A DNA stretch of 60,834 bases, counting the filler, from Nitrospirota bacterium (GTDB taxonomy: Bacteria > JACPQY01): assembly GCA_016180645.1 (NCBI GenBank). It is 3 parts of 3 records of this genome, joined end to end, with 100 filler letters (N's around TTAATTAATTAA, not from the genome) between each part and the next. Parts side by side here need not be neighbours in the genome. Positions count along the whole stretch, not along the records: positions 19,626 to 45,435 come from JACPAV010000059.1; 2 more parts are not named here. One strand, given 5' to 3'. Made by a program: the position numbers and the translations under genes. The notes under the pieces are model-generated. The model did no database searches. It was not told where the DNA came from and saw only the letters and a list, made by a program, of their open reading frames with translations. Positions 31,840 through 51,128 of this stretch are shown here, in pieces (position 1 is the first letter of the stretch; the number at the start of each line of letters is the position of its first letter).

Positions 31840-31844
31840 CTGTC

Positions 31845-32453: not shown

Positions 32454-33144
32454 CCGCTGGCAGACTCCCGAGTCCAACGTGGCGCGGGAATTCGTCCAGC
32501 ACGTGCTCCTGTGCGCTCTTTTCCAGATCAGGGGCGCGGACTCGAAGCTCGCGTTCAAGGGCGGGACGGCTCTCCACCTCCTGAGACGCAGCCCGCGATT
32601 TTCGGAGGATCTGGACTTCACGGCCTGGGCCAGGCCGTTTCACATAGGAGAGTGGATCAAGCAAGCGGCCAAGGAAGCCGGGCGGGCGGGGCTCAACTTC
32701 AAGACGGTCGAGTCGAACCCGACCTCGGGAGGGTGGTTGGCGCTGACGGAGACGCGCGTCCACGACTGGCCCGTTCAAATCGAATGGAATGTCTCCCTCC
32801 GAGGCGGGAGAGTCTCCCCCGCGCACGAGACCGTCCTCGTCACAACCCCTCTCTGGACACCGTACACGGTCACCGCCCTTTCAATGGACCAGATGGTCCA
32901 GGAGAAGATCGAAGCCTTGCTCCGGCGACAGGAGCCGCGGGACTTCTTCGACCTCTATTTCGTGATCCGCGAGCGCCTCGGAATCAAAAAGATCGTCGCC
33001 CGGAAGGAGAAGTTGCTCCGCCTGGCACGGGAGATCAACCTCAGAGCGGCCGCAAGGGAACTGAAAGAATTCCTGCCGCGGACCCATTGGGCGGTCATCA
33101 AGCAACTCCCCAAGATCCTCTCCCAAGAGATCGAGCGCTTGTAG
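32419..33144 (+). CDS. AbiEii/AbiGii nucleotidyltransferase toxin
   Basis: FKGGTAL..RFSEDLDF..EKI.AL..R..PRDFFDL. Confidence 0.9.
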   Translation: MISQSQITELSDRWQTPESNVAREFVQHVLLCALFQIRGADSKLAFKGGTALHLLRRSPRFSEDLDFTAWARPFHIGEWIKQAAKEAGRAGLNFKTVESNPTSGGWLALTETRVHDWPVQIEWNVSLRGGRVSPAHETVLVTTPLWTPYTVTALSMDQMVQEKIEALLRRQEPRDFFDLYFVIRERLGIKKIVARKEKLLRLAREINLRAAARELKEFLPRTHWAVIKQLPKILSQEIERL

Positions 33145-34077: not shown

Positions 34078-35784
34078 CTATCGCAATCGGCAAGCTGGTT
34101 TCGGGCGAAGAGCCATGAAGCTGGAGATGTACCGCTCAGCTTGGCCCTTGGAAAGCTTGGCCTTCCGGAGCTCGCCGGCGGAAATGGTCGAAAGCCTCGA
34201 TAGAAGGCCCACCTGACGATCCGTCATCGGGTCCGGACTCCGCCTCCATTTGGCCCTGGCATTCGAAACTTCGATCAAATCACGATCGACGTGCAGGGGC
34301 AGCAGCCTCTCGAGGGCTTTTATGGTCTCGTCTTGAGATCCCGCGACCGTCAGAGTCTTTCGGATTCCGTTCTCCGTCTCCAAGACCGCACAGAAGATGC
34401 TCCCGTGTTGGGCGATGGAAACCGTGCTCCCACCGACCAAGCTCAAGAAGACTGCCCCACCAGGAAGTTTCAGAAATGGGAGGCCGGTGACGCGGTCCAA
34501 GACGTCGCTGATACGCCACTCCTCGTGTGGCTCGCTGAACGAAGGTGGCTCATATCGATTGATCAACCTTACGAGCGTGTGATGGAGCGCCTGACGCGTT
34601 CTCGCGCGCCGCGCGTTCTCAAGGTTGGCGGCATGCTCGGCCATCAGCTGTCCGTTCGGGAAATCTCCATCTTCCCCGGTAAAGTGCATAGGCACCTTCG
34701 GGCAGCTCCGGCTATGGCGTTGGTCGATGAGCTGAATCACGATCGCGTAGGCTTTCCCCGGCCAAGTGCGCAGGGTGCGGCCGACCTGCTGAAGCATGAG
34801 GACACGCGCTGAGAATTCCGTGAAGGGTCGCAGAAGGAGAACACAACGCACCTGCGGACAATCAAACCCTTCGGCCAGCAACCCACACGTCACCAAGACT
34901 TGGATTGCCCCCTCCCGAAACGCCTCCAAGATCTCCAGCCTTTCCTTTCGGCTGAGCTTGCTGTGGATTGCGCGAGCCGCCAGTCGCTCCCTCCGGAACC
35001 GCTCGGCCACCGACTCTGCGTGCACGATATCCGCGCAAAACGCGATGGCCTGCTCATCTTCTCCCCACTCCAGGTACGCCTCGAGAGCCATTTGATTCCG
35101 CCAGTCAACATCAACCTTCTGCCCAAGATTTCCCGGATGAAAATCTCCTTCCTGGCCGACGCTTACTTCTGAGACATCCATGAATGTATTGCGACCGTAG
35201 AAACGGCCGTCGACCAGATGCCCCATCTCGATGAGCTCTCGCAGGCCCAGGTAAGACACAATTGGACCGAACTCAGTGAGGCAGACCCCATCACCTCGGA
35301 CCGGTGTAGCGGTAAGGAGCACAAGAAACGATTCCTTATACACATCACGCCACCTGCGGAAACTATGGGCCAGCATATGGTGCCCTTCATCCATCACGAC
35401 CGTATGGAAAGATTCCGGTGCGAGGCCCCCTGGAGGCTTCTGAGCAAACACACTCGCTATCGCAATGTCCTCGCCGCGACTCACGTTGACTTGCGGTGAG
35501 AAGCTCACCCTGTGGCCGGAGGCACCGTGCCGCATGCGGGTCACCTCGTGCAGTTTTTCCGCCCACTGCCGAAAGAGCACATCCTGATGAGCGAGGACAG
35601 ACCCATAGGGGCCGGCCTTCTCACAGGCGAGCGTAAGGATCGACGCGCCGACGTCGGTCTTGCCGGCGCCGGGCGGCATCACAAGGACCACGGTCTTCCC
35701 GACTTCGTGCAGCCGGAGCGCAACATCCACGGCTTCGAGCTGATAAGGTCGAAGCCGCCATTGGCTTAGTGCATGCTGAGCCAT
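34078..35784 (-). CDS. SF2 DExH helicase (ResIII/IRC3-like)
   Basis: LRPYQ, PPGAGKT, DEGHH, TATP, EGFDCP, QQVGRTLR. Confidence 0.9.
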   Translation of the reverse strand: MAQHALSQWRLRPYQLEAVDVALRLHEVGKTVVLVMPPGAGKTDVGASILTLACEKAGPYGSVLAHQDVLFRQWAEKLHEVTRMRHGASGHRVSFSPQVNVSRGEDIAIASVFAQKPPGGLAPESFHTVVMDEGHHMLAHSFRRWRDVYKESFLVLLTATPVRGDGVCLTEFGPIVSYLGLRELIEMGHLVDGRFYGRNTFMDVSEVSVGQEGDFHPGNLGQKVDVDWRNQMALEAYLEWGEDEQAIAFCADIVHAESVAERFRRERLAARAIHSKLSRKERLEILEAFREGAIQVLVTCGLLAEGFDCPQVRCVLLLRPFTEFSARVLMLQQVGRTLRTWPGKAYAIVIQLIDQRHSRSCPKVPMHFTGEDGDFPNGQLMAEHAANLENARRARTRQALHHTLVRLINRYEPPSFSEPHEEWRISDVLDRVTGLPFLKLPGGAVFLSLVGGSTVSIAQHGSIFCAVLETENGIRKTLTVAGSQDETIKALERLLPLHVDRDLIEVSNARAKWRRSPDPMTDRQVGLLSRLSTISAGELRKAKLSKGQAERYISSFMALRPKPACRLR

Positions 35785-35942
35785 AGGGTTTCCACGGCAG
35801 TTTGGGACCGCTTCTCCGGGCATCCTGGACAATAGGTCCCCGTGTTCGAACGGAAGTACTCACAGTGGCCGGCGTCGCGTAGCGGGACGTTACACGACCG
35901 CAGCCTGCGACGCGGGAGATGCCTGTAGATCAGCGTGTGCAA

Positions 35943-36886: not shown

Positions 36887-38068
36887 ATGCAAACGCTTGC
36901 CGGATACTTCGCGGAGCACAACCTCTTTGACGAGACGACCCTTCGGGAGCACGGCCGGGCGCGCGGCGTCCGGGTGGCGACCTCTCCGCGGTTTCCCCAC
37001 CTCAGACTTCTGGAATATGGCACCCTCGTGCAGATCGAAAAGATCCCGTGGGACCTCTTCAACCGGCGTTGCCGCGGCATCGTTGTCGACTTGGAGAGGA
37101 AGCGCCTCTTGGCCTTTCCCTTCCACAAGTTCTTCAATCTCGGGGAAAAGCCTGAAACGGCGGTCAACCGCCTCCTTGAACTGGGCACCTTCACCGCCAC
37201 GGAAAAACTGGACGGATCGATGGGCATCCTCTTCTACGACGAGGCCTCAGGACGCTTCCACATCACGACTCGGGGGAGTTTCGACTCGACGCAGGCCCTA
37301 TGGTCCTCGGAGCGCATTCCGGCCTCCGTGCAGGACACCAATCTCGTCGAGGCCTACACTCTGATTTTCGAGATCATCGCCTATCGGGTTCGGGGTCTCG
37401 ATAACATCATCGACTATCGTAAGAAAGGTTTGGCCGAGGGCCTGTATCTCGTGGGGATGCGCCACCGGATCTCCGAAACTCTTCTTCCCCACGCCGAGCT
37501 CTTCCGCTTTGCGAAGGCGCGGGGTCTGCCCACACCGAGGGTCCATGCGTTCGCTTCTCTCGATGCCTGCACGTCGCATGCGAAGACCCTCGATTGGATG
37601 GATGAAGGGTTCGTGCTGGAGTTCCGCGACGGCACGCTGGTCAAGGTGAAGAGCCCCGAATACTTGAGAGTCCACCGGTTCGTCTCGGGGTACAGCGATC
37701 GCAGGGTGCTGGAAGCCCTGCGTGACGGGAAGTCCGACATCATGTTGGCGGGCGTGCCGGAGGAGTACCGAGGACCGGTGGAGGCGGACTTCGAGAAGTG
37801 GCGACGGAAGGCCCTGGATCTCCGCAACGAGGCTTATGCGCAGCTCGCGCGCGCCCCGCAGGGCGACCGGAAGGCCCTTGCCTTGTGGTGCAATGAGCAC
37901 GTTGCCCACCATCTGATCCCGTTCGTTTTCCTTGCCCTGGACAACCGACTCACTCTCGATGGGTTGTACGGATATCTCCTGAAGGGGCTCGGACCGGGGG
38001 AAACGGATCGGAGGAACTTGGCCCGGGGAAGCCGGCCGGCAGATTCCGGGGAGCCTCCCGAAGGGTGA
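36887..38068 (+). CDS. T4 Rnl1-family RNA ligase
   Basis: CRGIV..FHKFFNLGE, motif I EKLDGS, TRGS, IFEII, EGFVL, VKVKS. Confidence 0.88.
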   Translation: MQTLAGYFAEHNLFDETTLREHGRARGVRVATSPRFPHLRLLEYGTLVQIEKIPWDLFNRRCRGIVVDLERKRLLAFPFHKFFNLGEKPETAVNRLLELGTFTATEKLDGSMGILFYDEASGRFHITTRGSFDSTQALWSSERIPASVQDTNLVEAYTLIFEIIAYRVRGLDNIIDYRKKGLAEGLYLVGMRHRISETLLPHAELFRFAKARGLPTPRVHAFASLDACTSHAKTLDWMDEGFVLEFRDGTLVKVKSPEYLRVHRFVSGYSDRRVLEALRDGKSDIMLAGVPEEYRGPVEADFEKWRRKALDLRNEAYAQLARAPQGDRKALALWCNEHVAHHLIPFVFLALDNRLTLDGLYGYLLKGLGPGETDRRNLARGSRPADSGEPPEG

Positions 38069-38940
38069 AAACGTTCGCGCAGGCTGCGCTCTTTCCGACG
38101 GAAGCCCCGCTGGATCCGACCCTTCCGGATCTGCTGCCTTTCTATCGGGACCACCTGATTGCTTCGAAGAAGAGCCATCACACCGTGGCCAGCTATCTGA
38201 GGATCCTTCGATCGTTCGTTCGGGATGCCGGGGCCGGCCGGCGACTCAACGCCTACTCGGTCCGGACGATCGAGGCGTACATTGCCCGGGTCCGATACGG
38301 AGACGGCGCTGACAAGACGGTGGAGCTGAACGCCGCGGCCCTCCGGCACTTCTTCCGGTGGGCGAGGGAAAACGAGTTTATGAGGGAGGATCCGGGCCAA
38401 CGGCTCATCTTCCCCCGTGCGCAGATCAAGCTCCCGGAGATCCCATCCATCAAAGAGGTGGACAAACTCCTGGAGACCGCGGCGGTTGACCCCCACGATC
38501 TTCTCCTGCTCCTCCTGTTCGCTGAAGGGGGCCTCAAGCGGGAGGAGGTCCTGGCGCTCCTGCCAAAGCATGTAAACGTGCGACATCCGCTCCACGTTGA
38601 AATCACCGTCCCGGCGTCCAGTCCGAGGAAGGTTCGAGTCGCGCGGATTCCGAGGGACTACGCGGTGGTGATTGAGGCGATCCTGGAAGAGGCCCACCCC
38701 GAGATCCCCGTTTGCACCTTCTCCCCGCCGTCGGTCTCGGCTCGTGTAGAGGCGATGGGACGCCTGGCAGGAGTCCGCCCTAGGATCACGCCGGCATCTC
38801 TCAGGCACTTCTGCGCGGTGAGGATTCTGAAGGCGGGGAGAACTATCGACGAAGTCCACGCCTATCTCGGGCTCGCCTCACCTAAGGACAGCCCGATCAT
38901 GCGGGACATCTACGTCACCCTCGCGAAGCTTCCTCTGTGA
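38065..38940 (+). CDS. XerC/D-like tyrosine recombinase with degenerate active site
   Basis: S.HTVASY, ALRHFF SAM-like domain; GLKREE, PASLRH, YLGL, IY. Confidence 0.75.
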   Translation: MKTFAQAALFPTEAPLDPTLPDLLPFYRDHLIASKKSHHTVASYLRILRSFVRDAGAGRRLNAYSVRTIEAYIARVRYGDGADKTVELNAAALRHFFRWARENEFMREDPGQRLIFPRAQIKLPEIPSIKEVDKLLETAAVDPHDLLLLLLFAEGGLKREEVLALLPKHVNVRHPLHVEITVPASSPRKVRVARIPRDYAVVIEAILEEAHPEIPVCTFSPPSVSARVEAMGRLAGVRPRITPASLRHFCAVRILKAGRTIDEVHAYLGLASPKDSPIMRDIYVTLAKLPL

Positions 38941-40019: not shown

Positions 40020-40487
40020 ATGAGAAAACATTCCCGGCCGTTCAATCTTGCGGTGGACGAGCAATTTCCAAGCCTGGAAACTCACCCGCTCGTTCGCCGT
40101 GCCCGGAGGGCACCGGTCGGCCGACAAATCCGGTGGATCCGTCTGAGGATCGGGATGACCCAGAAACAACTGGCCCGAAGGGCGGGGATCTCGCAGCAAC
40201 ACGTAGCTCTCTTGGAGAAGGACGGCTCACAAGCGGAGCTCAGGACGCTGACCAAGGTGACCGAAGCGCTGGAGTGTACCCTCGCCGTTCTCGTCTCCCC
40301 GCGCGACAAGTTGAGTCGCATGATCCGCAAGCAAGCGGAGAAGGTTGCCGGAAAGAGACTCTCGAAGGTGATGGGGAATATGGCGCTTGAGGGCCAGGAG
40401 CCTTCATCGGCGATGTCGAAGCGGCTTCTTGAAGACGAGATCAAGAACCTCTCGATCAAACCATCTTCGGAGCTCTGGGAGGAATGA
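40020..40487 (+). CDS. Mobile mystery protein A (XRE HTH)
   Basis: IR..IGMTQKQLA..GISQQ, MALEGQ, ELWEE. Confidence 0.85.
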   Translation: MRKHSRPFNLAVDEQFPSLETHPLVRRARRAPVGRQIRWIRLRIGMTQKQLARRAGISQQHVALLEKDGSQAELRTLTKVTEALECTLAVLVSPRDKLSRMIRKQAEKVAGKRLSKVMGNMALEGQEPSSAMSKRLLEDEIKNLSIKPSSELWEE

Positions 40488-41092
40488 AGCCGACCTTGAG
40501 ACAGCCGGAGGGCGCCACGCCGCTGACGGATGTCTCCGGACTGTTATTGGAAAACGTTGCGACCCTCGACGCGCTCAACGTTGTGGAATCGGCGAATATC
40601 CTTGACGCAACCCGGGAGCATCTTCGACGGCGGCATGGCTCCAAGAGGAGATGGATCACCGTGGCGTATCTGTTGCGCGTACACCGCGACATGTACGGGG
40701 AGGTTTGGCGCTGGGCGGGCGAAATTCGCCGGACGGAAAAGAACATAGGCATCGAAGCGTACCGGATCCGAGAGGAGTTGGAGAAACTGTGCGGCGACGT
40801 GAACTTCTGGGATACGCAGGAAACGTCGATGCCGGTCCTCGAAAGAGGCGTGCGCATTCACCATAGACTGGCCTGGATACACGCGTTCGAAAACGGCAAC
40901 GGACGCCACGCCCGACTCATGGCGGATATCTATCTCCATGCACATCGCCAGCCGCTCCCCGAATGGCCATCGAGCAACCTCGTAAAAGTCGGCAACGCCC
41001 GCAGATCGTATCTGGAAGCCATGAGGGCGGCTGACGGCGGAAATGTGGAGCCGCTCCTCCAACTCACTGCACGCTTCATCAAGAGCGCCTGA
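40484..41092 (+). CDS. Mobile mystery protein B (Fic domain)
   Basis: PEGATPL, VWRWAG..R.TEKNIG, HAFENGNGRHAR. Confidence 0.9.
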   Translation: MKPTLRQPEGATPLTDVSGLLLENVATLDALNVVESANILDATREHLRRRHGSKRRWITVAYLLRVHRDMYGEVWRWAGEIRRTEKNIGIEAYRIREELEKLCGDVNFWDTQETSMPVLERGVRIHHRLAWIHAFENGNGRHARLMADIYLHAHRQPLPEWPSSNLVKVGNARRSYLEAMRAADGGNVEPLLQLTARFIKSA

Positions 41093-41218: not shown

Positions 41219-41292
41219 CGGTCCCGGCCGGACTTGAACCGGCTTTCTCCGCCTTGACAGGGCGGCGTCTCGACGGCTTCGACTTCGGGACC
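41219..41292 (-). tRNA. tRNA-Asp(GTC)
   Basis: Cloverleaf, loop CTGTCAA. Confidence 0.85.
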
Positions 41293-41294
41293 AT

Positions 41295-41400
41295 CGCTCC
41301 TGCCCGGATTTGAACCGAGGTCCCATGGCTGAGAACCACGTGTCCTGATCAACCTGGGCGGGCCGCTTCCGTGGCGTTGCAGGTGGTGGGACCATCGAGC
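41295..41400 (-). pseudogene. tRNA-Glu(CTC), 5' part disrupted
   Basis: Anticodon arm (TTCTCAG), T arm and 3' acceptor present; ~35 extra nt in D region, poor acceptor pairing. Confidence 0.6.
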
Positions 41401-41403
41401 CTC

Positions 41404-41478
41404 TGGTAGCGGGTCCAGGATTTGCACCTGGGATCTCGTGGTTATGAGCCACACGAGATACTACTTCTCCAACCCGCG
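41404..41478 (-). tRNA. tRNA-Met(CAT), initiator-like, CCA encoded
   Basis: C1 mismatch, loop CTCATAA. Confidence 0.85.
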
Positions 41479-41568
41479 ATCAGAAACTCGACGATTGAAT
41501 GGTGTGTGGTAGGTTATCGCTCGCGCATTCGCGGGCGATCTTCGTAGAAGGACTCCGCGCCCATCCGG

Positions 41569-41639
41569 ACACGGCTGCGGGAGTTGCACCCGCCTGATGT
41601 GGGTTGCAGCCACACGCCTACCTGCTCGGCCAAGCCGTG
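41569..41639 (-). tRNA. tRNA-Cys(GCA)
   Basis: Loop CTGCAAC, U73. Confidence 0.82.
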
Positions 41640-41691
41640 ATCAGATGGACGCAGACTACAGTTCGATAGATGCTTCATCACGTTGCCTCCG

Positions 41692-41764
41692 CTGGGGAGG
41701 TGAGTCTCGATCTCACAACTTCCTGATTAACAGTCAGGCCCGTTGCCAATTGCGGTACTCCCCA
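41692..41764 (-). tRNA. tRNA-Asn(GTT)
   Basis: Loop CTGTTAA; T-loop ATCGAGA. Confidence 0.82.
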
Positions 41765-41854
41765 GCGCAGACCACGCACCAGAAAGTTCCTATTGCTCGG
41801 ACCCAGTTTCTTCATGCTGTTCATGGTACTCCTCTCCTCCCGATTGTCAAACTG

Positions 41855-41927
41855 CGGGGGTCGGGAGACTCGAACTCCCACGAGCCGTTTTGGAGACGGC
41901 GCGGCTATCCTGTTACCACAGACCCCC
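41855..41927 (-). tRNA. tRNA-Trp(CCA)
   Basis: Loop CTCCAAA. Confidence 0.82.
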
Positions 41928-41931
41928 TAGC

Positions 41932-42003
41932 TCGGCGCGGGTGGACTCGGACCACCATCAGTCGGTTATAAGCCAACCGCTCTAACCCTTGAGCTACACG
42001 CCG
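41932..42003 (-). tRNA. tRNA-Ile(TAT)
   Basis: Loop CTTATAA, full cloverleaf. Confidence 0.8.
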
Positions 42004-42010
42004 TAACCTT

Positions 42011-42100
42011 CGGAAGCTGAGGGAATTGAACCCCCGTCCCATCACAGGCGGGATTCCCCTTAGCAGGGGGATGCGACAAACCGACAGTCGCCTACCTTCC
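42011..42100 (-). tRNA. tRNA-Ser(GCT)
   Basis: Loop CTGCTAA, long variable arm. Confidence 0.82.
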
Positions 42101-42107
42101 CAAACTG

Positions 42108-42179
42108 AGCCGAGGGACGGTTTCGATCCGTCATCTCCGCATTACGGGTGCGGTGCTCTGCCGACTGAGCTACCCCGGC
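42108..42179 (-). tRNA. tRNA-Thr(CGT)
   Basis: Loop CCCGTAA (C33). Confidence 0.82.
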
Positions 42180-42183
42180 ATTG

Positions 42184-42257
42184 AGCCGCCGGTCGGGGTC
42201 GATCCGACACCTTTCCGCTTACAGGGCGGATGCACTCCCTTGTTGTGCTACGGCGGC
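42184..42257 (-). tRNA. tRNA-Thr(TGT)
   Basis: Loop CCTGTAA (C33). Confidence 0.82.
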
Positions 42258-42264
42258 GTAAACG

Positions 42265-42336
42265 TGTGGGAGGCGGGGGTCGATCCCGCGTATCCGGCTT
42301 GGAAGGCCGGTGCCTGATCCGTTCGGCCACTCCCAC
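42265..42336 (-). tRNA. tRNA-Gly(TCC)
   Basis: Loop CTTCCAA. Confidence 0.82.
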
Positions 42337-42343
42337 ATAACCT

Positions 42344-42415
42344 TGCGCGGGGCCGGCCTCGATCCGGCATGGACCTGTGCGTAGGACAGGCGGCTCTCCA
42401 TTCACCTACCCACGC
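42344..42415 (-). tRNA. tRNA-Val(TAC)
   Basis: Loop CCTACGC (C33), weak D stem. Confidence 0.72.
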
Positions 42416-42422
42416 TCAAACT

Positions 42423-42494
42423 TGTGGGAGACAGGATTCGCACCTGCGTGATCCGACCTGGCAAGCCGGCGCCTGACTTCTAGGCTACTCCCAC
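42423..42494 (-). tRNA. tRNA-Gly(GCC)
   Basis: Loop TTGCCAG. Confidence 0.82.
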
Positions 42495-42497
42495 TCA

Positions 42498-42569
42498 AGC
42501 CCCCACGGAGCGTCGATCTCCGGTCGCCACGTTACCGATGCGGTGCTCTGCCGACTGAGCTACAGGGGC
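42498..42569 (-). tRNA. tRNA-Thr(GGT)
   Basis: Loop TCGGTAA (C33). Confidence 0.78.
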
Positions 42570-42575
42570 GCAAAT

Positions 42576-42664
42576 TGGCGGAAGGGGAGGGATTCGGACC
42601 CTCAACGCCCTTTCGAGCGCACCCGCTTTCGAGGCGGGCCGACTACCCGTTATCGCACCCTTCC
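42576..42664 (-). tRNA. tRNA-Ser(CGA), CCA encoded
   Basis: Loop CTCGAAA, long variable arm. Confidence 0.85.
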
Positions 42665-42669
42665 AAACT

Positions 42670-42756
42670 TGGCGGTGAGAGCAGGAATCGAACCCGCGAC
42701 GGATTTCCCGTTCTCCGCTTCCAACGGAGCGCCTTCAACCGCTCGGCCATCTCACC
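42670..42756 (-). tRNA. tRNA-Ser(GGA), CCA encoded
   Basis: Loop TTGGAAG, long variable arm. Confidence 0.88.
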
Positions 42757-42762
42757 ACAATT

Positions 42763-42849
42763 CGGTGGAGGCGGGATTCGGACCCGCGTCCGCCGGTCGG
42801 CGGAATCCGTTTTCAGGACGGACGGTTTCAACCACTCACCCACTCCACC
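42763..42849 (-). tRNA. tRNA-Ser(TGA)
   Basis: Loop CCTGAAA (C33), long variable arm. Confidence 0.82.
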
Positions 42850-42855
42850 AAAACT

Positions 42856-42938
42856 TGGCCCCGCCAGGACTTGCACCTGGACGGCCTTCTCGGCCGGCGG
42901 GTCTTAAGCCCGCTGCGTCTCCGTTCCGCCACGGGGCC
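42856..42938 (-). tRNA. tRNA-Leu(TAA)
   Basis: Loop CTTAAGA, long variable arm. Confidence 0.85.
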
Positions 42939-42974
42939 GGTTTCTCTCTTTCGTTGTCAAAGAACCGTCAAACT

Positions 42975-43057
42975 TACCCGGAGAGGGATTTGCACCCCCA
43001 CGCCCGTTACGGCACCTGGGCCTGAGCCAGGCGCGTCTGCTGTTCCGCCATCCGGGT
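42975..43057 (-). tRNA. tRNA-Leu(CAG)
   Basis: Loop CTCAGGC, long variable arm. Confidence 0.85.
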
Positions 43058-43182
43058 GTCAAACGTCTCGGAGTCGCGACTCGAATCCGGACGCCAAAAA
43101 CTTCATCCCGTAGCACGGGGTTCATTGCCTCTCCTCCAAAATGCAGGGACAGACCAAATGAAAACATTCCACGGTCACGGTT

Positions 43183-43309
43183 GGCTCCTCGAGTGTTTTG
43201 TTCGGGGGCTCGCCGCGACCTATAAGGTCTGCGTGCCGAGCGATCCGACTGTGAGCAGTATCGTGGCCGCGATGGACCACAACACTGATAGGACAAACGA
43301 GAAGGAGCC
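43183..43309 (-). ncRNA. Putative ~127-nt three-way-junction RNA in tRNA array
   Basis: Closing stem GGCTCCTT/GAGGAGCC, 13-bp G-U-containing hairpin, second long interrupted hairpin. Confidence 0.45.
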
Positions 43310-43382
43310 TGGCCACTCCAGGAATCGAACCTGGCTCTGTCCCTTTTCAGGGGACCGCATCGACCACGGTTGCTCAGTGGCC
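43310..43382 (-). tRNA. tRNA-Phe(GAA)
   Basis: Loop CTGAAAA. Confidence 0.82.
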
Positions 43383-43459
43383 AGGTTCGTAAAGAACGGG
43401 TCTTTCTTCTTCTCGTTCATGTTCGTACCCTCATTGTGCCAGATTGAACTCCCAAGTCA

Positions 43460-43535
43460 ATGCCGGGGTGGGAATCGAACCCACGACCACGACGTTTAAG
43501 GCGTCGGCTCCGATGCCAACACAGAGTGCCCGGCA
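43460..43535 (-). tRNA. Gln-type tRNA with TTA anticodon (ochre suppressor-like)
   Basis: Stem CGACG/CGTCG, loop CCTTAAA; U1-A72 and D arm shared with neighbouring Gln(CTG). Confidence 0.72.
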
Positions 43536-43544
43536 ACTAACTTG

Positions 43545-43620
43545 ATCCCAGGGAAGGAGTCGAACCTTCAACCAACGGTTTCAGAGACCGTGCTCCGATG
43601 CCGGTACAGAGTGCCTGGGA
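43545..43620 (-). tRNA. tRNA-Gln(CTG)
   Basis: Loop CTCTGAA, enlarged D loop. Confidence 0.8.
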
Positions 43621-43623
43621 ATA

Positions 43624-43697
43624 TGCCCCCGGCAGGATTCGAACCCGTATCTCTCAGTTACGGTGTTCCGGGTAGAAACCGGAGCCGGTACGGGGGC
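43624..43697 (-). tRNA. D-armless tRNA-Arg(TCT)-like RNA
   Basis: Perfect acceptor, anticodon (TTTCTAC) and T arms; 7-nt connector instead of D arm; 18-nt variable region. Confidence 0.65.
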
Positions 43698-43704
43698 CTG
43701 AACT

Positions 43705-43776
43705 AGCCCTCGGCGGGAGTTGCACCCGCACCCATCCGCTTAGGAGGCGGACCCCTGTCTGTTCGGGATCGAGGGC
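43705..43776 (-). tRNA. tRNA-Arg(CCT)
   Basis: Loop CTCCTAA. Confidence 0.78.
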
Positions 43777-43847
43777 GGTACCTGGTTTTAGGAGTGAAGT
43801 GTCGGCGTAGAGGGACTACGCCTGTCTTTGCCGGTGGGACCTGAACT

Positions 43848-43935
43848 TGGTGGAGGCGGCAGGACTCGAACCTGCGAAGAGGTTTCCCTCAACTGCTCTA
43901 CAGGCAGCCGCATTTGCCGCTGATGCTACACCTCC
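43848..43935 (-). tRNA. tRNA-Tyr(GTA), CCA encoded
   Basis: Loop CTGTAGA, long variable arm. Confidence 0.88.
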
Positions 43936-44002
43936 GAAATCCTCGGAGTCCGCACCAGCAGTGCTATACAGCAGGTTCATCCGTGTCTTCATGCCGATGA
44001 GT

Positions 44003-44149
44003 CTACCTCTGTCTCGTCGCTTCGTCAATTTCCTTCTTCATGGCCTCTTCCTCGGCCCGAAGCTGAGGTGTCTTCTTGGGCGCCAAGCCCTTCTTGTGCG
44101 GCTTGCACAGGCCGCACGAGCGCCTCTTACGTTTGTACACGGCACCCAT
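44003..44149 (-). CDS. 48-aa basic CxxC protein within tRNA array
   Basis: MGAVYKRKRRSCGLCKPHKKG.. fills the spacer between tRNAs. Confidence 0.6.
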   Translation of the reverse strand: MGAVYKRKRRSCGLCKPHKKGLAPKKTPQLRAEEEAMKKEIDEATRQR

Positions 44150-44170
44150 GCCGAGATTGTCCCAAAAACT

Positions 44171-44263
44171 TGCCCTCGGTGGGCCTCGATCCCACAATCT
44201 TCAGGCTCGGAACCTGACGTGCCCCGTAATGCGGGGCGCGCGATCCCTTCGCACCGCGAGGGC
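44171..44263 (-). tRNA. tRNA-Arg(CCG) with ~19-nt palindromic insertion in D arm
   Basis: Loop TTCCGAG; extra GCCCCGCATTACGGGGC hairpin. Confidence 0.7.
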
Positions 44264-44307
44264 GCGAAGGGGAAAAGAAAGGGGCACCCCTCTTTCCCCT
44301 CCAAACT

Positions 44308-44379
44308 TGGGACCGGAAGGAGTCGAACCTTCGACCTCTCGCATGTCGAGCGAACGTTCCACCGCTGAACTACGGTCCC
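44308..44379 (-). tRNA. tRNA-Val(GAC)
   Basis: Loop TCGACAT (C33). Confidence 0.85.
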
Positions 44380-44380
44380 G

Positions 44381-44452
44381 TGGAGCCGACTGGAATCGAA
44401 CCAGCAGTATCGACAATGCCATTGTCGCGTGTTCCCGTTACACCACGGCCCC
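44381..44452 (-). tRNA. tRNA-Ala(GGC)
   Basis: Loop ATGGCAT, G3-U70. Confidence 0.88.
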
Positions 44453-44460
44453 CAAAACTC

Positions 44461-44603
44461 TGCGGCTGGTGAGATTCGAACTCACACGCTGCTCCGTCCG
44501 TACCTGGCCAGGATGGCTTGGTACTGCGAGACGATGCAGCGCCAGGACGGCGCTGCATATAACCGCTGTAGCGGAGTGGCCTCTCCAATTGACCGACAGC
44601 CGC
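44461..44603 (-). tRNA. tRNA-Arg(ACG) interrupted in the anticodon by a 68-bp insertion
   Basis: Removing the insert restores CTCCG-CTACGGA-CGGAG and a 75-nt cloverleaf. Confidence 0.8.
44500..44570 (+). mobile_element. Miniature structured insertion element, copy A (GTA duplication)
   Basis: Homologous to copies B and C; antisense to host tRNA. Confidence 0.75.
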
Positions 44604-44613
44604 GCAAACCTAC

Positions 44614-44687
44614 GGTGGCCGACCGGAATCGAACCGGCGTGAGCGTGGGCCACAACCACGCGCCTTACCAACATCGGCCACGGCCAC
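44614..44687 (-). tRNA. tRNA-His(GTG)
   Basis: Loop TTGTGGC, C73; G-1 not encoded. Confidence 0.85.
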
Positions 44688-44700
44688 ACTTCAATAAACT

Positions 44701-44755
44701 TCGGGACGGCGCCAGGATGGCTTGGCCATCCCGCGACTGGCCGGATGCCACCAAG
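44701..44755. repeat. 54-bp palindromic insertion duplicating the tRNA-Pro 3' acceptor strand
   Basis: CGGGACG at 44702-44708 and 44756-44762 flanks GCCAGGATGGC-type hairpins. Confidence 0.65.
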
Positions 44756-44826
44756 CGGGACGCTAGGATTCGGACCTGGGGCCACTCGCTCCCCGAACGA
44801 GTGCTCTATCTCTGAGCTACGTCCCG
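44755..44826 (-). tRNA. tRNA-Pro(GGG)
   Basis: Loop TCGGGGA (C33). Confidence 0.8.
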
Positions 44827-44832
44827 CAAGTT

Positions 44833-44906
44833 TCAGGGCGGTGAGAATCGAACTCACGGCCTCCCGGTTCCAAGCCGGGTGCTCTTGTCCCCTGAGCTAC
44901 GCCCTG
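44833..44906 (-). tRNA. tRNA-Pro(TGG)
   Basis: Loop CTTGGAA. Confidence 0.87.
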
Positions 44907-44945
44907 TCTTCATTTCGGGCTGCTCGGAATCGAGCCGAGTCCACA

Positions 44946-45014
44946 TGCCACGTTGATCGCCCCGCATCCTGCGGGGCTTTCCTATCGTGGTACCAGGACT
45001 CCCTGTCCAGGTGC
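44946..45014 (-). mobile_element. Miniature structured insertion element, copy C (GCA duplication)
   Basis: In anticodon stem of tRNA-Pro(CGG); diverged but same architecture as A and B. Confidence 0.7.
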
Positions 45015-45037
45015 TCCCGAAGCATGGATGCGACCAC

Positions 45038-45106
45038 TACAGCGTTATATGCAGGCCATCCTGGCCTGCTTCCTTTCGCAGTACCAAGCCGTCCTCGGCC
45101 AGGTAC
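45038..45106 (-). mobile_element. Miniature structured insertion element, copy B (GTA duplication)
   Basis: In D arm of tRNA-Pro(CGG); reverse-complement homolog of copy A. Confidence 0.75.
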
Positions 45107-45117
45107 ACCACACCCCG

Positions 45118-45191
45118 TGGTGCGCCGGGATGGAGTTGAACCATCATCTCCGCGTTATCGGCACGGTGCTCTGCCGTTGAGCTACGGGCGC
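45118..45191 (-). tRNA. tRNA-Ile(GAT), CCA encoded
   Basis: Loop CCGATAA (C33). Confidence 0.83.
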
Positions 45192-45201
45192 GTTCACACT
45201 T

Positions 45202-45274
45202 TGGGTCCGGTGGGATTTGCACCCACAGCTCCCCGGTTAAAGGCCGGGTACTCTGTCTGTTGAGTTACGGACCC
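45202..45274 (-). tRNA. tRNA-Lys(TTT)
   Basis: Loop CCTTTAA (C33). Confidence 0.85.
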
Positions 45275-45277
45275 GTG

Positions 45278-45337
45278 ATCCCACCACCTGTCACTAGGTC
45301 GAAAACCTGCCTTCCGGCAGTGACAAGGTGGTGGGAT
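45278..45337. repeat. 60-bp palindromic MITE/REP-like element
   Basis: ATCCCACCACCTGTCACT ... AGTGACAAGGTGGTGGGAT. Confidence 0.7.
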
Positions 45338-48808: not shown

Positions 48809-49633
48809 CTACAGTCTCGTCAACTCCACCAGGACAACGGTGATGTTGTCCATCCCACCCGCGATCTTCGCGCGCTCGATCAGGTCATCGGCCATCGTGT
48901 CGAGGTTGTCCCCGCTCAGCGCCTCCAGGATTTCGTCCGCACGGATCATATTCGTCAGGCCGTCCGAGCAAAGCAGGTAGCGGTCTTTCTCGCGCAGTTC
49001 GTTCTGGAAAACATCCACGTCCACGTGCTCGTCAAGCCCCACGCATCGCGTCACCACATTTTTCAAATAGTGGGCCTCCGCCTCCACACTGGATAGCCGC
49101 CCCTCGCGAACCTGCTCCTGGACCCACGAGTGGTCCTGGGTTACGAGATGGAGTTCTCCCTCCCGGACCAGGTAGGTGCGGCTGTCTCCGAGGTTGGCGA
49201 CGTAGGTGTACAAGCCGTCCTCATTCGCCGGGTCCACCCACAAGGATGTGAGCGTGGTCCCCATGCCTTTGTATTTCGGATTGTTCTTGGCGTACTCGTA
49301 AACGATGCGGTTGGCTTCCTCCATCGACTTCCGCAGGATGACTTCGTGTGCGTCCCGAGGGGCGGCCGGTCCTTTGAACGCGCGGGTGAGACGGTGGAAG
49401 AGCGGTTGCCGCTGGGTGGATTCCGGATCATCCGCCGAACGCTCTCGCACATGTCGCAGGAGGCCGTCTTGAAGCCCCTTGACACAGAGTTGGCTCGCCA
49501 GTCCCCCGCCGATGTGTCCGCCCATGCCGTCGGCCACGGCGTAGAGACCCATTTCCTCATTCACGAGGAAGGAGTCCTCGTTCTTCTCGCGCCAGTTGCC
49601 GATGTCCGTTCGAGCCGCATGCCGGATGATCAT
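48809..49633 (-). CDS. PP2C-family Ser/Thr phosphatase (Stp1-like)
   Basis: TDIG..R..NED, VADGMGG, GMGTT, GDSR, LCSDGL, GG.DNIT. Confidence 0.93.
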   Translation of the reverse strand: MIIRHAARTDIGNWREKNEDSFLVNEEMGLYAVADGMGGHIGGGLASQLCVKGLQDGLLRHVRERSADDPESTQRQPLFHRLTRAFKGPAAPRDAHEVILRKSMEEANRIVYEYAKNNPKYKGMGTTLTSLWVDPANEDGLYTYVANLGDSRTYLVREGELHLVTQDHSWVQEQVREGRLSSVEAEAHYLKNVVTRCVGLDEHVDVDVFQNELREKDRYLLCSDGLTNMIRADEILEALSGDNLDTMADDLIERAKIAGGMDNITVVLVELTRL

Positions 49634-49646
49634 GGTCGTAGGCCTG

Positions 49647-49751
49647 CACCCCCACCCACACCCTCCCCCTTCGAGGGGGAGGGGAACAAAGGTTCGCGCC
49701 GCTCCCTCTCGTCCCTTCCCCCCTTGAGGGGGAAGGTGGGGATGGGGGGTG
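49647..49751. repeat. REP-like inverted pair
   Basis: CCCTCCCCCTTCGAGGGGGAGGG and CCTTCCCCCTTGAGGGGGAAGG. Confidence 0.75.
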
Positions 49752-49769
49752 CTGAAAGGATGGTCATGG

Positions 49770-51128
49770 TCAGTTCCCGCTGATCTGAAGGTTTGAGACG
49801 AGGAGCGAGGGGGAGCCGATCGATCCCATGAATCGGAGGTCGTTGGCCACGGCATCCACGTGCTTGAAAAGCGTTTTCAGGTTCCCCGCAATCCCGAATC
49901 CGCGAAGGGGGCCGGCGGGCTTCCCTTTCGCAATCTCCTGCCCCACGGCGCCGAGCGAGAATTCGCCCGAAATTGGATCTGCCGTGTGGAGGCCGATGAC
50001 CTCCGTGATGAGCACGCCGCTTCCGCACTCTGAATGGAGACGGTCCGGAGACCACGTTCCGGCTTCCACGTGCAAGTTGGAGGGTGCGAGGACGGGGGCA
50101 GATTGGCTCGCGCCGCGCCGCGCGTTTCCCGTCGAGCCGCGCCGGCTCTTGTTGCCCCAGTAAGTGTCGCAGAGGAGGGTGCGAAGCAGGCCTCGTTCCA
50201 CAACCGTGGAGCGCTGGGCCGGCACGCCTTCGCCGTCGAAGGGCGCCGCGTTCGCCCCGCGGGTTTCCAAGCCATTGTCGACCAGCGTGAGATGTTTCGA
50301 GAGGATCAACCGGCCCACCGCATCGCCCCAAAGCGACTTCTTCTTCATCGTATTCTCGACGAGAAACGAGGGCGCAAGGAGGGATAGAAATTCGGCGGCC
50401 ACGTGGTTTTCCAGGACCACGGGACACTCCCGGGTTTTCGGAACACGGCCTCCCAGTCGGGATACGGCTTTGCGGGCGACTTTTTTCCCGAGCGCTTCGG
50501 CGTCGAGTTCGTGGAGAAACGAGGAAAATTGGAAATCCCACGCGTTTTCCGATTCTCCGCCTTTCTCCGCCACGGCCATGAGACTCAGACTGCAATAGGT
50601 TTTCGAGTAACTCGACTGGAGTCCGTTCGAATTGGCGAGATAGACCGTTCCGAAGATCTCATCGTAGGCGGACTTCCGAACGCGCTTCACGGCCCGGTGG
50701 GCCCGGAGCGAGGAGGCTTCCAGCTCGAGCGCGAGCTTGATCTTCTCCTCATCGGGCGTGGAAGGGACGTGTGCGTCGTACAGGTTGACCGCGGGGAGTG
50801 GTGCGGGTGTCGACTTGGGGAAGGCATGGTGTTCGTCCGCATCCAGGCACCGAGCCGTTCCCGCGGCAAATTGAAGCGCCCGGCGCACGGCATCCGGCGT
50901 GAGTTGAGTGGCATATGAAAAGCCCATGCGTCCGTCTAGAAGGAGGCGGACCCCTAGGGTCGTCGTCTCTGCACGGTCTCTCGCATGGATCTCCTGCCCT
51001 TTGACTTCGATGCTTTGCTCCGCGAGATGGGCTACGTAGGCTTCCCACTGGCGGGCCTTGAGGCGCCTGGATTCGATCAGGATCGTTTCCAGGATCCGTT
51101 CAATCGCGCCCTCTTCCAAAGCCTGCAC
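49770..51128 (-). CDS. pmbA: TldD/PmbA family protein (PmbA-type)
   Basis: PFDGEG, STGNA, SGEFS, IAGNL, GSPSLLV; no HExxxH. Confidence 0.88.
   Translation of the reverse strand: MQALEEGAIERILETILIESRRLKARQWEAYVAHLAEQSIEVKGQEIHARDRAETTTLGVRLLLDGRMGFSYATQLTPDAVRRALQFAAGTARCLDADEHHAFPKSTPAPLPAVNLYDAHVPSTPDEEKIKLALELEASSLRAHRAVKRVRKSAYDEIFGTVYLANSNGLQSSYSKTYCSLSLMAVAEKGGESENAWDFQFSSFLHELDAEALGKKVARKAVSRLGGRVPKTRECPVVLENHVAAEFLSLLAPSFLVENTMKKKSLWGDAVGRLILSKHLTLVDNGLETRGANAAPFDGEGVPAQRSTVVERGLLRTLLCDTYWGNKSRRGSTGNARRGASQSAPVLAPSNLHVEAGTWSPDRLHSECGSGVLITEVIGLHTADPISGEFSLGAVGQEIAKGKPAGPLRGFGIAGNLKTLFKHVDAVANDLRFMGSIGSPSLLVSNLQISGN

What the first reader, a model, noticed from the sequence alone, without database searches (positions are those of the whole stretch)
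44461..45117. One family of 66-68-bp structured mini-elements inserted three times inside tRNA genes
Seen: copy A (44500-44570) splits the ACG anticodon of tRNA-Arg. Copies B (45038-45106) and C (44946-45014) sit in the D arm and anticodon stem of tRNA-Pro(CGG). Each is bounded by a 3-bp direct repeat (GTA, GTA, GCA), and precise removal restores a cloverleaf. Shared layout: GYACCTG-hairpin-GGTAC, YRCGA, purine linker, second hairpin with an AGGAY loop, AAC..GYA. Stems covary (GCC/GGC vs GAC/GTC; GCAG/CTGC vs GCCC/GGGC). A is antisense and B/C are sense to the tRNA; A and B both hit a GTAG. Inference: a non-autonomous MITE/REP-like element moving as structured DNA with a preference for tRNA genes. 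RNA-level excision as an intron, with Rnl1 on the same contig, is possible but less likely given both orientations.
Basis: partly seen in the sequence, partly recalled or inferred. Interest (0 to 1): 0.85.

Follow-up and report, generated by a model that had tools for sequence, protein, structure and literature searches.

The report
Hairpin-seeking mini mobile DNA in tRNA genes
Three copies of a 66-68-base structured mobile DNA element really do break two spare tRNA genes, but the same element family is scattered about a hundred times through a related bacterium's genome, where it lands in small DNA hairpins and never in tRNA genes, so it is a genome-wide selfish repeat and not a tRNA-specific element or an intron.

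Summary
Copies A, B and C sit at the stated coordinates. They score 84-89 bits with a covariance model, against a next-best window hit of 11 bits. Removing them in silico restores tRNA-Arg(ACG) and tRNA-Pro(CGG).

The claimed tRNA preference does not hold. A related Nitrospirae MAG (G001) has 94 matches. None of the 77 simple copies I examined restores a tRNA when excised. They lie in GTAG-headed REP hairpins, for which empty versions exist, or nested inside other copies.

Four subfamilies share one rule. The two bases left of the element equal its last two bases, and both are complementary to an internal stretch beside hairpin 1 (63 of 77 rows).

One DNA contig from another groundwater study skips element A by exactly 68 nt.

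Best reading: a non-autonomous single-strand-DNA element of the IS200/IS605 or REP kind. Its target dinucleotide is set by internal base pairing, and it favours hairpin loops. The tRNA genes were hit because they fold like such hairpins, sit in a dispensable island array, and offer GTA/GCA sites.

The transposase is unknown. An RNA intron is very unlikely. Verdict: a new variant of a known kind, of moderate interest.

The parts
44500..44570 (+). Copy A, TA-type subfamily. The top strand is antisense to the tRNA. The net insert is 68 nt, lying 3' of a GTA in the anticodon loop of tRNA-Arg(ACG).
   Evidence: Scores 85.6 bits. Excision restores the tRNA. One contig in run X5 skips 44500-44567 exactly.
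45038..45106 (-). Copy B, TA-type subfamily, sense to the tRNA. The net insert is 66 nt, lying 3' of G12-T13-A14 in the D arm of tRNA-Pro(CGG).
   Evidence: Scores 88.5 bits. Excision together with C restores the tRNA. It is 94% identical to a G001 copy.
44946..45014 (-). Copy C, CA-type subfamily, sense to the tRNA. The net insert is 66 nt, lying 3' of a GCA in the 3' strand of the anticodon stem of tRNA-Pro(CGG). Its internal guide reads TA, so pair 2-24 is a C.A mismatch.
   Evidence: Scores 83.8 bits. It is 84% identical to a CA-type copy in G001.
44461..44603 (-). tRNA-Arg(ACG) gene, split by copy A.
   Evidence: ARAGORN finds it only after excision.
44915..45117 (-). tRNA-Pro(CGG) gene, split twice, by B and by C.
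   Evidence: ARAGORN finds it only after both excisions.
44707..44760 (+). Probable fourth small insertion, 'D', about 54 nt with two small hairpins carrying AGGAT and CGGAT loops. It lies in the 3' acceptor end of tRNA-Pro(GGG). Its last bases rebuild the acceptor strand, so that gene stays intact.
   Evidence: Contigs of runs X5 and X9 skip 54 nt here. Depth is 9- to 11-fold above the flanks in X2 and X4, so it is a high-copy repeat. The R1 model gives only 10.1 bits. The fold is not significant, z -1.1. It is absent from G001.
41219..45274 (-). tRNA array of 31 intact genes plus the 2 split ones, at the end of a mobile or defence island. It is the landing ground for the insertions.
   Evidence: ARAGORN finds 30 genes and Rfam adds one at 41219-41292. 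Island genes were identified.

Best explanation
A, B and C are members of a dispersed family of non-autonomous mobile elements. Each adds 63-68 nt. The family occurs in a groundwater Nitrospirota lineage.

Anatomy. The active strand folds into three helices:
- Hairpin 1 (P1) has a conserved T.T mismatch and an AGGAY loop.
- A short helix (P2) stacks on P1.
- P2 encloses hairpin 2 (P3), whose loop is also AGGAY.
The two hairpins lie in direct orientation. There are no terminal inverted repeats.

Proposed mechanism (inferred). The element moves as single-stranded DNA, in the manner of IS200/IS605 elements and REPs, using a trans-acting HUH tyrosine transposase. It is cut 3' of a short word at both ends. 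That word reads N-Y-A, N-C-C or N-T-C according to subfamily. Both copies of the word can pair with the same internal 'guide', bases 23-25 on the 3' side of hairpin 1. The element integrates 3' of the same word in a single-stranded target. The target word is kept once after excision.

Shown here:
- Target words are used mainly where they lie in or at the edge of a hairpin loop. Such sites are REP hairpins, the loop of hairpin 2 of other copies, and here the anticodon and D arms of tRNA genes.
- The two tRNA genes are broken at the DNA level.

Inferred consequence. The insertions are probably tolerated because the array sits on an accessory island.

The enzyme and the single-strand chemistry are inferred, not shown.
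For: 1. Genome-wide family.
- There are 94 matches at E<=0.01 in the 3.3-Mb MAG G001, with 150 of 398 candidates scored. Many lie at contig ends.
- 100 matches were aligned from 76 sources.

2. The structure is real.
- 94.9% of 1558 cells pair, against 77.2% in shuffles and 34-41% when the partners are slid.
- 11 of 20 pairs show changes on both sides.

3. Filled and empty sites.
- G001 holds 18 and 9 exact 'empty' GTAG-headed hairpins, with 0 hits to the reversed control patterns.
- Their filled versions carry the element directly after the 5' stem strand.
- TC-type copies sit inside the ATCCT loop of hairpin 2 of other copies, for example L007, L092, L093, L097 and L105.
- Three tRNA reconstructions work.
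- One DNA contig in run X5 skips A by exactly 68 nt with 3 ambiguous bases. Filled contigs occur in X5 and X9.

4. Guide rule.
- In 63 of 77 distinct rows the left dinucleotide equals the terminal dinucleotide and is the Watson-Crick complement of bases 23-24. The four types are TA, CA, CC and TC.
- The base before it varies on the left: G 41, A 26, C 6, T 4. At the right end it is G in 76 of 77 rows.
- This fits a target-derived left word and an element-derived right word.

5. Hairpin targets.
- 42 of 71 reconstructed empty sites place the insertion point in a hairpin loop or at its edge, against 145 of 400 random sites.
- Mean folding energy is -17.7 against -12.2 kcal/mol.

6. Literature, from passages read.
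- IS608 has subterminal hairpins on one strand.
- It cuts sites chosen by pairing with guide bases.
- It inserts 3' of a tetranucleotide that is kept without gain or loss.
- REP-associated transposases use the GTAG word in a similar way.

7. Candidate enzymes. G001 encodes 8 Y1_Tnp proteins. The one I scanned scores best against the REP-associated tyrosine transposase model, though below its cut-off.
Against: - No transposase is linked to the element. None of the 8 Y1 loci has a copy within 1.5 kb; the best hit is 12 bits. The window encodes no Y1 protein (tblastn).
- The putative guide lies 3' of hairpin 1. In IS608 the guides lie 5' of the hairpin foot.
- A 2-bp target duplication made by some other enzyme fits the junctions equally well.
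- The four subfamilies amount to only about three independent changes of the guide rule.
- Many G001 sites are copies of a few REP classes, so the count of independent insertion events is unknown.
- The orientation of the window copies is mixed: A is antisense, B and C are sense. There is therefore no simple strand bias.
- The empty allele rests on one 131-nt contig with only 27 nt on one side, laid at 85% likeness.
- In this window all copies lie in tRNA genes and none in the other 56 kb. Some true tRNA bias in this organism is therefore not excluded.
Confidence: 0.7

Rival explanations
1. The family is an ordinary cut-and-paste or copy-and-paste miniature element. A double-strand transposase (DDE or other) mobilises it and makes a 2-3-bp target duplication. 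The hairpins are incidental, or they serve the host, for example as terminators or in RNA stability.
For: - The junctions are formally compatible with a 2-bp duplication of TA, CA, CC or TC.
- In the window the repeat is 3 bp in all three cases.
- No HUH enzyme could be tied to the element.
Against: - There are no terminal inverted repeats.
- The two hairpins are in direct orientation and share the same loop, like the ends of IS200/IS605 elements.
- The duplicated dinucleotide is complementary to an internal stretch in 73 of 77 rows. A duplication made from arbitrary target DNA gives no reason for that.
- The first base of the 'repeat' differs between left and right in 36 of 77 rows.
Confidence: 0.15
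2. The inserts are introns. They are transcribed within the pre-tRNA, cut out at the RNA level, and the halves are rejoined, perhaps by the Rnl1-type ligase of the island. The tRNA genes therefore remain functional.
For: - Precise removal restores cloverleaves.
- The inserts are compact, independently folding domains.
- An Rnl1-family ligase gene lies at 36887-38068.
Against: - A is antisense while B and C are sense.
- The same family sits in at least 77 non-tRNA sites in G001, including REP loops and other copies.
- The insertion points (anticodon 33-35, D arm, anticodon stem) fit no known bacterial tRNA intron.
- Rfam reports nothing but tRNA matches at gathering score anywhere in the window, so no intron or ribozyme family.
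- A 66-nt RNA is far below group I size (established knowledge).
- tRNA-Pro(CGG) carries two inserts, as expected of a dead gene.
Confidence: 0.03
3. The family is a static structural repeat, with a REP/BIME-like host function. It spreads by recombination or gene conversion rather than by transposition. The tRNA interruptions would then be rare accidents of such recombination.
For: - Many G001 copies share identical flanks. The composite REP-plus-element units may be copied as blocks.
- Copies are much better conserved than the genomes: 94% for B against a G001 copy, versus 66-68% for syntenic housekeeping genes.
Against: - Insertions are precise, with clean empty sites, in unrelated contexts: three tRNA positions, three REP classes, and the element's own loop.
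- Site A is polymorphic between populations.
- Nested insertions occur in both orientations.
Confidence: 0.07

Closest known systems
IS200/IS605 family single-strand transposons (IS608, ISDra2) and their non-autonomous derivatives (palindrome-associated transposable elements)
   Same: - One active strand.
- Near-identical subterminal hairpins at both ends in direct orientation, one of them imperfect.
- No inverted terminal repeats.
- Insertion 3' of a short word that is kept once on excision.
- Cleavage and target words that match an internal DNA stretch by base pairing.
The IS608 features are from passages of PMC3201880 read.
   Different: - It is only 63-68 nt long, with no room between the hairpins.
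- The word is 2-3 nt, not 4-5.
- The same word is used at both ends.
- The complementary stretch lies 3' of hairpin 1 and simply extends its stem. It is not 5' of the hairpin foot.
- No IS200-type TnpA or TnpB was found. PF07282 gave 0 hits in G001. The one Y1 protein I scanned against NCBIfam is RAYT-like.
REP / BIME / REPIN elements with REP-associated tyrosine transposases (RAYT, TnpA-REP)
   Same: - High copy number, GC-rich hairpins, lineage-restricted, apparently extragenic.
- The same genome (G001) holds classical GTAG-headed REP hairpins and 8 RAYT-like genes.
- RAYT cleavage-site choice through a guide-like word is reported in passages of PMC8266576.
   Different: - The mini-element has no GTAG head of its own.
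- It has two hairpins in direct, not inverted, orientation.
- It is not found beside the RAYT-like genes.
- It behaves as an invader of REP hairpins rather than as a REP.
Insertion sequences that target REP hairpins (IS1397, ISKpn1, ISPpu9 and other IS110-family members)
   Same: The REP stem-loop serves as a preferred landing site. For the literature I saw only the search listings and abstracts of PMC1525189, PMC8450116 and PMC12288879.
   Different: - Those are autonomous elements of 1-2 kb with their own transposases.
- The single IS110-family gene of G001 shows no similarity to the element.
Bacterial tRNA group I introns and archaeal bulge-helix-bulge tRNA introns
   Same: An intervening sequence inside a tRNA gene whose exact removal restores the cloverleaf.
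   Different: - The size does not fit.
- One of the three copies is antisense.
- The positions do not fit.
- Rfam finds no intron family.
- The bulk of the family lies outside tRNA genes.

Membership tests
IS200/IS605-type single-strand elements (non-autonomous derivative) | Subterminal hairpins at both ends on the same strand, and no terminal inverted repeats | tested here: met
   Two hairpins in direct orientation carry the same AGGAY loop, and hairpin 1 is imperfect (T.T). The ends are not inverted repeats.
IS200/IS605-type single-strand elements (non-autonomous derivative) | Insertion 3' of a fixed short target word that is retained once, with no gain or loss on excision | tested here: inconclusive
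   Empty and filled sites fit this: tRNAs, REP hairpins and the skip of 68 nt. A 2-bp duplication would look the same.
IS200/IS605-type single-strand elements (non-autonomous derivative) | Cleavage and target words recognised by pairing with guide bases 5' of the hairpin foot | tested here: inconclusive
   Complementarity between the target/end word and an internal stretch is seen in 73 of 77 rows. The full three-way rule holds in 63 of 77. However, the stretch lies 3' of hairpin 1, not 5' of it (compare).
IS200/IS605-type single-strand elements (non-autonomous derivative) | A Y1 HUH transposase (TnpA) that mobilises it | tested here: inconclusive
   There is none in the window. G001 has 8 Y1_Tnp genes, RAYT-like on the one I scanned, and none has a copy within 1.5 kb. 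Activity cannot be tested here.
IS200/IS605-type single-strand elements (non-autonomous derivative) | Orientation bias with respect to replication (lagging-strand template) | not testable with these tools
   Only MAG contigs and a 60-kb window are available. The window copies are 1 antisense and 2 sense relative to the tRNA strand.
REP / REPIN with RAYT | A 20-40-nt palindrome headed by a conserved GTAG (or CGTC) word | tested here: not met
   The element adds about 66 nt, has two hairpins and has no internal GTAG head. The hairpins it invades in G001 do have one.
REP / REPIN with RAYT | Copies flank the RAYT gene (REPtron arrangement) | tested here: not met
   0 of 8 Y1 loci hold a model match better than 12 bits.
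Classical MITE (DDE-derived) | Terminal inverted repeats and a fixed-length target duplication | tested here: not met
   There are no inverted ends. The first base of the 3-bp 'repeat' differs between left and right in 36 of 77 rows.
tRNA introns (group I or bulge-helix-bulge) | Sense orientation, a recognisable catalytic core or splice motif, and spliced RNA | tested here: not met
   A is antisense. Rfam reports nothing but tRNA matches at gathering score. Spliced RNA could not be tested because no RNA run holds the locus.
IS110/IS1111 REP-targeting elements | A DEDD transposase with adjacent non-coding ends related to the element | tested here: not met
   G001 has one PF01548 gene. The best model hit in its locus is 10.3 bits.

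The most novel reading that the evidence does not exclude
The family is a previously undescribed, ultra-compact class of single-strand-DNA transposon. It adds about 63-68 nt and consists of nothing but two enzyme-binding hairpins.

Its target is 'programmed' by two or three bases that extend hairpin 1. Subfamilies have retargeted themselves to TA, CA, CC and TC simply by changing those bases together with their own 3' end.

The family seeks hairpin loops in single-stranded DNA. REPs, its own copies and tRNA genes therefore become hot spots.

If true, tRNA arrays on mobile islands could be eroded specifically by such elements. The guide rule would also be a natural, minimal example of DNA-guided target choice.
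Probability: 0.45. Interest if true: 0.6.

Novelty: new variant of a known kind. Interest (0 to 1): 0.4.

Why it matters
- It turns an apparent tRNA-specific element, or new kind of tRNA intron, into a testable case of a hairpin-seeking selfish repeat.
- It shows that accessory tRNA arrays can be knocked out gene by gene by such repeats. Here Arg(ACG) and Pro(CGG) are lost.
- Gene finders silently miss these tRNAs, which matters when tRNA arrays on islands and phages are annotated.
- The three-way rule (target word = element end = complement of an internal stretch) across four subfamilies gives a simple hypothesis that can be tested in vitro. It concerns how very small single-strand elements choose and change their targets.
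- The same data show REP hairpins acting as traps for a second layer of mobile DNA.

Tried and rejected
- **Own genome.** No whole genome is held for the window. Copy distribution in the organism itself could not be measured.
- **Phage origin.** There are no close matches in the phage collection, only single tRNA matches of 78-83% identity. The pattern gave 0 hits in viral contigs.
- **Genome-collection pattern scan.** 4 of the 8 loci (L001, L004, L005, L006) are chance matches, scoring at most 17.6 bits.
- **Metagenome pattern scan.** It gave 4 loci and none is a family member; the best score 22.8 and 17 bits.
- **Empty alleles or the same array in relatives of G001.** Not found in the 60 genomes searched with the 4.1-kb array. 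Only single tRNA matches and G001's own element copies came up.
- **Family distribution.** The model matched 1 of 120 genomes, G001 itself, using stricter filters and at most 42 candidates scored per genome.
- **Expression.** No RNA holder was listed for the locus, so expression and splicing could not be examined.
- **Transposase hunt.**
  - The Y1 loci hold no copies.
  - AGGAN-loop hairpins are not enriched around them: 6 in 25.5 kb, against 28 in the 60.8-kb window.
  - One suggestive run of GGGCC-AGGAC-GGCCC hairpins lies upstream of the L041 gene, but it is a single case.
  - The IS110 locus is unrelated.
  - No TnpB was found.
- **Open-frame test for an intergenic location.** It was weakly informative in this GC-rich DNA. 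29 of 60 copies lie in an open frame running at least 150 nt on both sides, against 124 of 151 random sites.
- **GTAG density.** It is only about 2-fold higher in tRNA genes (7.8 per kb against 3.7 per kb). Word supply alone does not explain three hits in tRNA genes.
- **Element D.** It is not found in G001.
- **Earlier notes of this scan.** They held nothing on this locus.
- **Literature.** My searches turned up no description of this family or of REP-like repeats in Nitrospirae. Supplementary files were not consulted.
Full report
**Setting**

The window is a piece of bacterial chromosome. It carries sigma-54 two-component systems, NHL/multihaem cytochromes, SMC, NAD kinase and a TldD/PmbA-family (PmbA_TldD) peptidase. 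Earlier notes of this scan on other pieces of the same genome call the organism an uncultured Nitrospirae/Nitrospirota bacterium. Its right-hand genes are syntenic, at 66-68% nucleotide identity, with a Nitrospirae groundwater MAG referred to here as G001.

An accessory island lies between about 18.6 and 45.4 kb. It holds:
- a CoiA-like nuclease;
- two very large tyrosine recombinases in tandem, and a third, smaller one;
- an AbiEi/AbiEii pair;
- a helicase;
- an Rnl1-family RNA ligase;
- a Fic protein.

The island ends in a tRNA array, 41219-45274, all on the minus strand. ARAGORN finds 30 genes there and Rfam adds one more.

Copies A (44500-44570, +), B (45038-45106, -) and C (44946-45014, -) align over their whole length. 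Each folds into the same three-helix shape far better than shuffled sequence, as RNA or as DNA and on either strand.

A covariance model built from the three (R1) scores them 84-89 bits. Nothing else in the window exceeds 11.2 bits with filters off.

ARAGORN finds no tRNA in the native stretches, nor after removing only B or only C. After precise removal of 68, 66 and 66 nt it finds tRNA-Arg(ACG) and tRNA-Pro(CGG).

The insertion points are:
- A: the anticodon loop;
- B: the D stem/loop edge;
- C: the 3' strand of the anticodon stem.

A is antisense to its tRNA; B and C are sense.

Contigs assembled independently from two other samples of the same study reproduce A, and B plus C, without a single difference. 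Misassembly is therefore excluded.

**The family is genome-wide elsewhere and avoids tRNA genes there**

A degenerate pattern taken from hairpin 1 found eight places in the species-representative genome collection. Four are chance matches. The other four lie on four contigs of one MAG, G001.

Running R1 over G001 gave 94 matches at E<=0.01, with 150 of 398 candidates scored. Many lie at contig ends, as expected of an assembly-breaking repeat.

The evidence on tRNA genes in G001:
- ARAGORN finds no tRNA in 29 of the 30 best loci. The 30th has one 685 nt away.
- I fetched 40 more sites and aligned 100 matches.
- I then excised each of the 80 simple copies (66-73 nt). None of the 77 G001 copies restores a tRNA.

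The model matched no other genome among 120 relatives of G001, under stricter filters. It found nothing in viral contigs and no true member in the JGI metagenome contigs.

**What the copies land in**

Several classes of site recur in G001.

- Many CC-type and CA-type copies lie just after the 5' strand of a 7-bp stem that is preceded by GTAG. This is the hallmark of REP sequences. The corresponding empty hairpins exist in G001, with 18 and 9 exact matches to two patterns and 0 to the reversed controls. They differ from the filled sites by exactly the element.
- TC-type copies sit in the ATCCT loop, the antisense of AGGAT, of hairpin 2 of other copies.
- CA-type copies also sit just 3' of the foot of that hairpin.
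- Some TA-type copies sit after the GTA of a REP's GTAG head.

Across 71 distinct reconstructed empty sites, 42 place the insertion point in a hairpin loop or at its edge. The figure for random sites of the same loci is 145 of 400. The empty sites also fold more stably, at -17.7 against -12.2 kcal/mol. These sites are not all independent, because composite REP-plus-element units seem to have been copied further.

**The structure and the three-way rule**

On the 100-row alignment the three helices pair in 94.9% of cells. Column shuffles give 77.2%, and slid partners give 34-41%. Eleven of 20 pairs change on both sides.

Four subfamilies exist. In 63 of 77 distinct rows three things coincide:
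- the two bases just left of the conserved CC of hairpin 1 (TA, CA, CC or TC);
- the last two bases of the element, which are the same;
- bases 23-24 on the 3' side of hairpin 1, which are their Watson-Crick complement.

The base before the dinucleotide varies on the left (G 41, A 26, C 6, T 4). At the right end it is G in 76 of 77 rows.

The tRNA reconstructions, the REP empty sites and the read-level skip all show that only one copy of the word belongs to the target. The target word of each subfamily is therefore matched to an internal stretch of that subfamily.

In the folded strand, helix P2 brings the 3' end next to the base of hairpin 1. The left word and the right word can thus pair alternately with the same three bases.

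**Mechanism proposed**

These features are those of single-strand transposition by HUH tyrosine transposases. In the passages of PMC3201880 that I read, IS608:
- has near-identical subterminal hairpins on one strand;
- is cut at words chosen by pairing with guide bases;
- inserts 3' of a tetranucleotide that is preserved without gain or loss.

In the passages of PMC8266576 that I read, REP-associated transposases use the GTAG word in a comparable way.

I therefore propose that the element is excised and integrated as single-stranded DNA, 3' of a guide-matched 2-3-nt word. It does this preferentially where that word is exposed in or beside a hairpin loop.

What is shown:
- the anatomy;
- the dispersal;
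- the clean filled and empty sites;
- the three-way rule;
- the hairpin context.

What is inferred:
- the single-strand chemistry;
- the enzyme.

G001 has eight Y1_Tnp genes. The one I scanned is RAYT-like, below the model's cut-off, and has a weak DnaA-C-like tail. None has a copy nearby, and the window has none. One IS110-family gene is unrelated to the element, and no TnpB was found.

**Why tRNA genes here**

tRNA arms are hairpins. Both TA-type copies sit after GTA|G, and the CA-type copy sits after GCA.

GTAG is only about twice as dense in the tRNA genes as in the rest of the window. Word supply alone therefore does not explain three hits in 650 bp. Hairpin context, local hopping and the dispensability of an island array probably all contribute. 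These three points are inference.

In a different groundwater study (run X5) one DNA contig joins 44499 to 44568. It skips exactly the 68 nt of A, with three ambiguous bases. Other contigs of X5 and X9 carry A. The side of the joint is only 27 nt, so this is supportive rather than decisive.

The same analysis shows a 54-nt skip at 44711-44764 in X5 and X9, and 9- to 11-fold excess depth over 44705-44751 in X2 and X4. This points to a fourth small repeat, D, inserted in the 3' acceptor end of tRNA-Pro(GGG). D's last bases rebuild the acceptor strand. D has a similar two-hairpin layout. However, it scores only 10 bits with R1, folds no better than shuffles and is absent from G001. Its kinship to the family is open.

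**The intron alternative**

This reading is very unlikely, for these reasons:
- One copy is antisense.
- The family lives overwhelmingly outside tRNA genes.
- The positions fit no known bacterial tRNA intron.
- Rfam finds nothing but tRNAs.
- One gene carries two inserts.

No RNA data exist for the locus, so direct proof is lacking.

**Age and spread**

B is 94% identical to a G001 copy, and C is 84% identical to a CA-type G001 copy. A and B are only 64-65% identical to C. The two genomes' syntenic housekeeping genes are 66-68% identical.

The subfamilies are thus older than the insertions. They are either strongly constrained or exchanged horizontally.

**Verdict**

The family is a real, undescribed member of the world of small hairpin repeats. 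It is closest in logic to IS200/IS605 derivatives and to REPs. It has an unusually compact build and a neat guide rule.

It is not tRNA-specific and it is not an intron. It is a new variant of a known kind, of moderate interest.

Noticed in passing
window 44707-44760: A roughly 54-nt high-copy repeat ('D') is inserted in the 3' acceptor end of tRNA-Pro(GGG). It is skipped by contigs of two other studies. Its end regenerates the acceptor strand, so the gene is still called intact.
   Followed up: partly
window 45276-45336: A 61-nt long-hairpin (REPIN-like) repeat lies directly beside tRNA-Lys. Its fold has z -6.2. Depth in runs X2 and X4 is 4- to 5-fold above the neighbouring sequence. Contigs that skip it have short sides and may come from other organisms.
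   Followed up: partly
window 49633-49777 and 13051-13334: Two further short stretches have several matches of 72-85% identity scattered over G001 contigs. They are probably other dispersed repeat families shared by the two genomes.
   Followed up: no
window 18600-45400: The tRNA array belongs to an accessory island. Its genes are a CoiA-like nuclease (21643-22779), two tandem giant tyrosine recombinases (25391-30063), AbiEi/AbiEii (31809-33144), a helicase (34078-35832), an Rnl1-type RNA ligase (36887-38068), another recombinase (38065-38940) and Fic/DOC (40484-41092). An RNA ligase and an AbiEii nucleotidyltransferase next to a tRNA array suggest a tRNA damage and repair conflict.
   Followed up: partly
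window 43460-43535 and 44171-44263: ARAGORN calls a tRNA with anticodon UUA (an ochre-suppressor type) and an odd 93-nt 'tRNA-Asn(att)'. Neither reaches Rfam's gathering score.
   Followed up: no
G001 loci L039-L046, L111-L129: G001 carries at least three classes of GTAG-headed REP hairpins and eight paralogous Y1 genes with open frames of about 280-340 aa. The one scanned against NCBIfam, L039, is RAYT-like and has a DnaA-C-like tail. A GGTAGCC word occurs within 1.5 kb of 4 of the 8 genes. Upstream of the L041 gene lies a run of GGGCC-AGGAC-GGCCC hairpins that resemble hairpin 1 of the mini-element.
   Followed up: partly
window copies against G001 copies: Element copies are far better conserved between the two genomes (up to 94%) than their syntenic housekeeping genes (66-68%). 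This hints at strong constraint or horizontal exchange of the family.
   Followed up: no
window 18706-18785: An 80-nt stretch at the left edge of the island matches G001 contig C33 at 81%. It is possibly a conserved small RNA gene or the island's attachment site.
   Followed up: no
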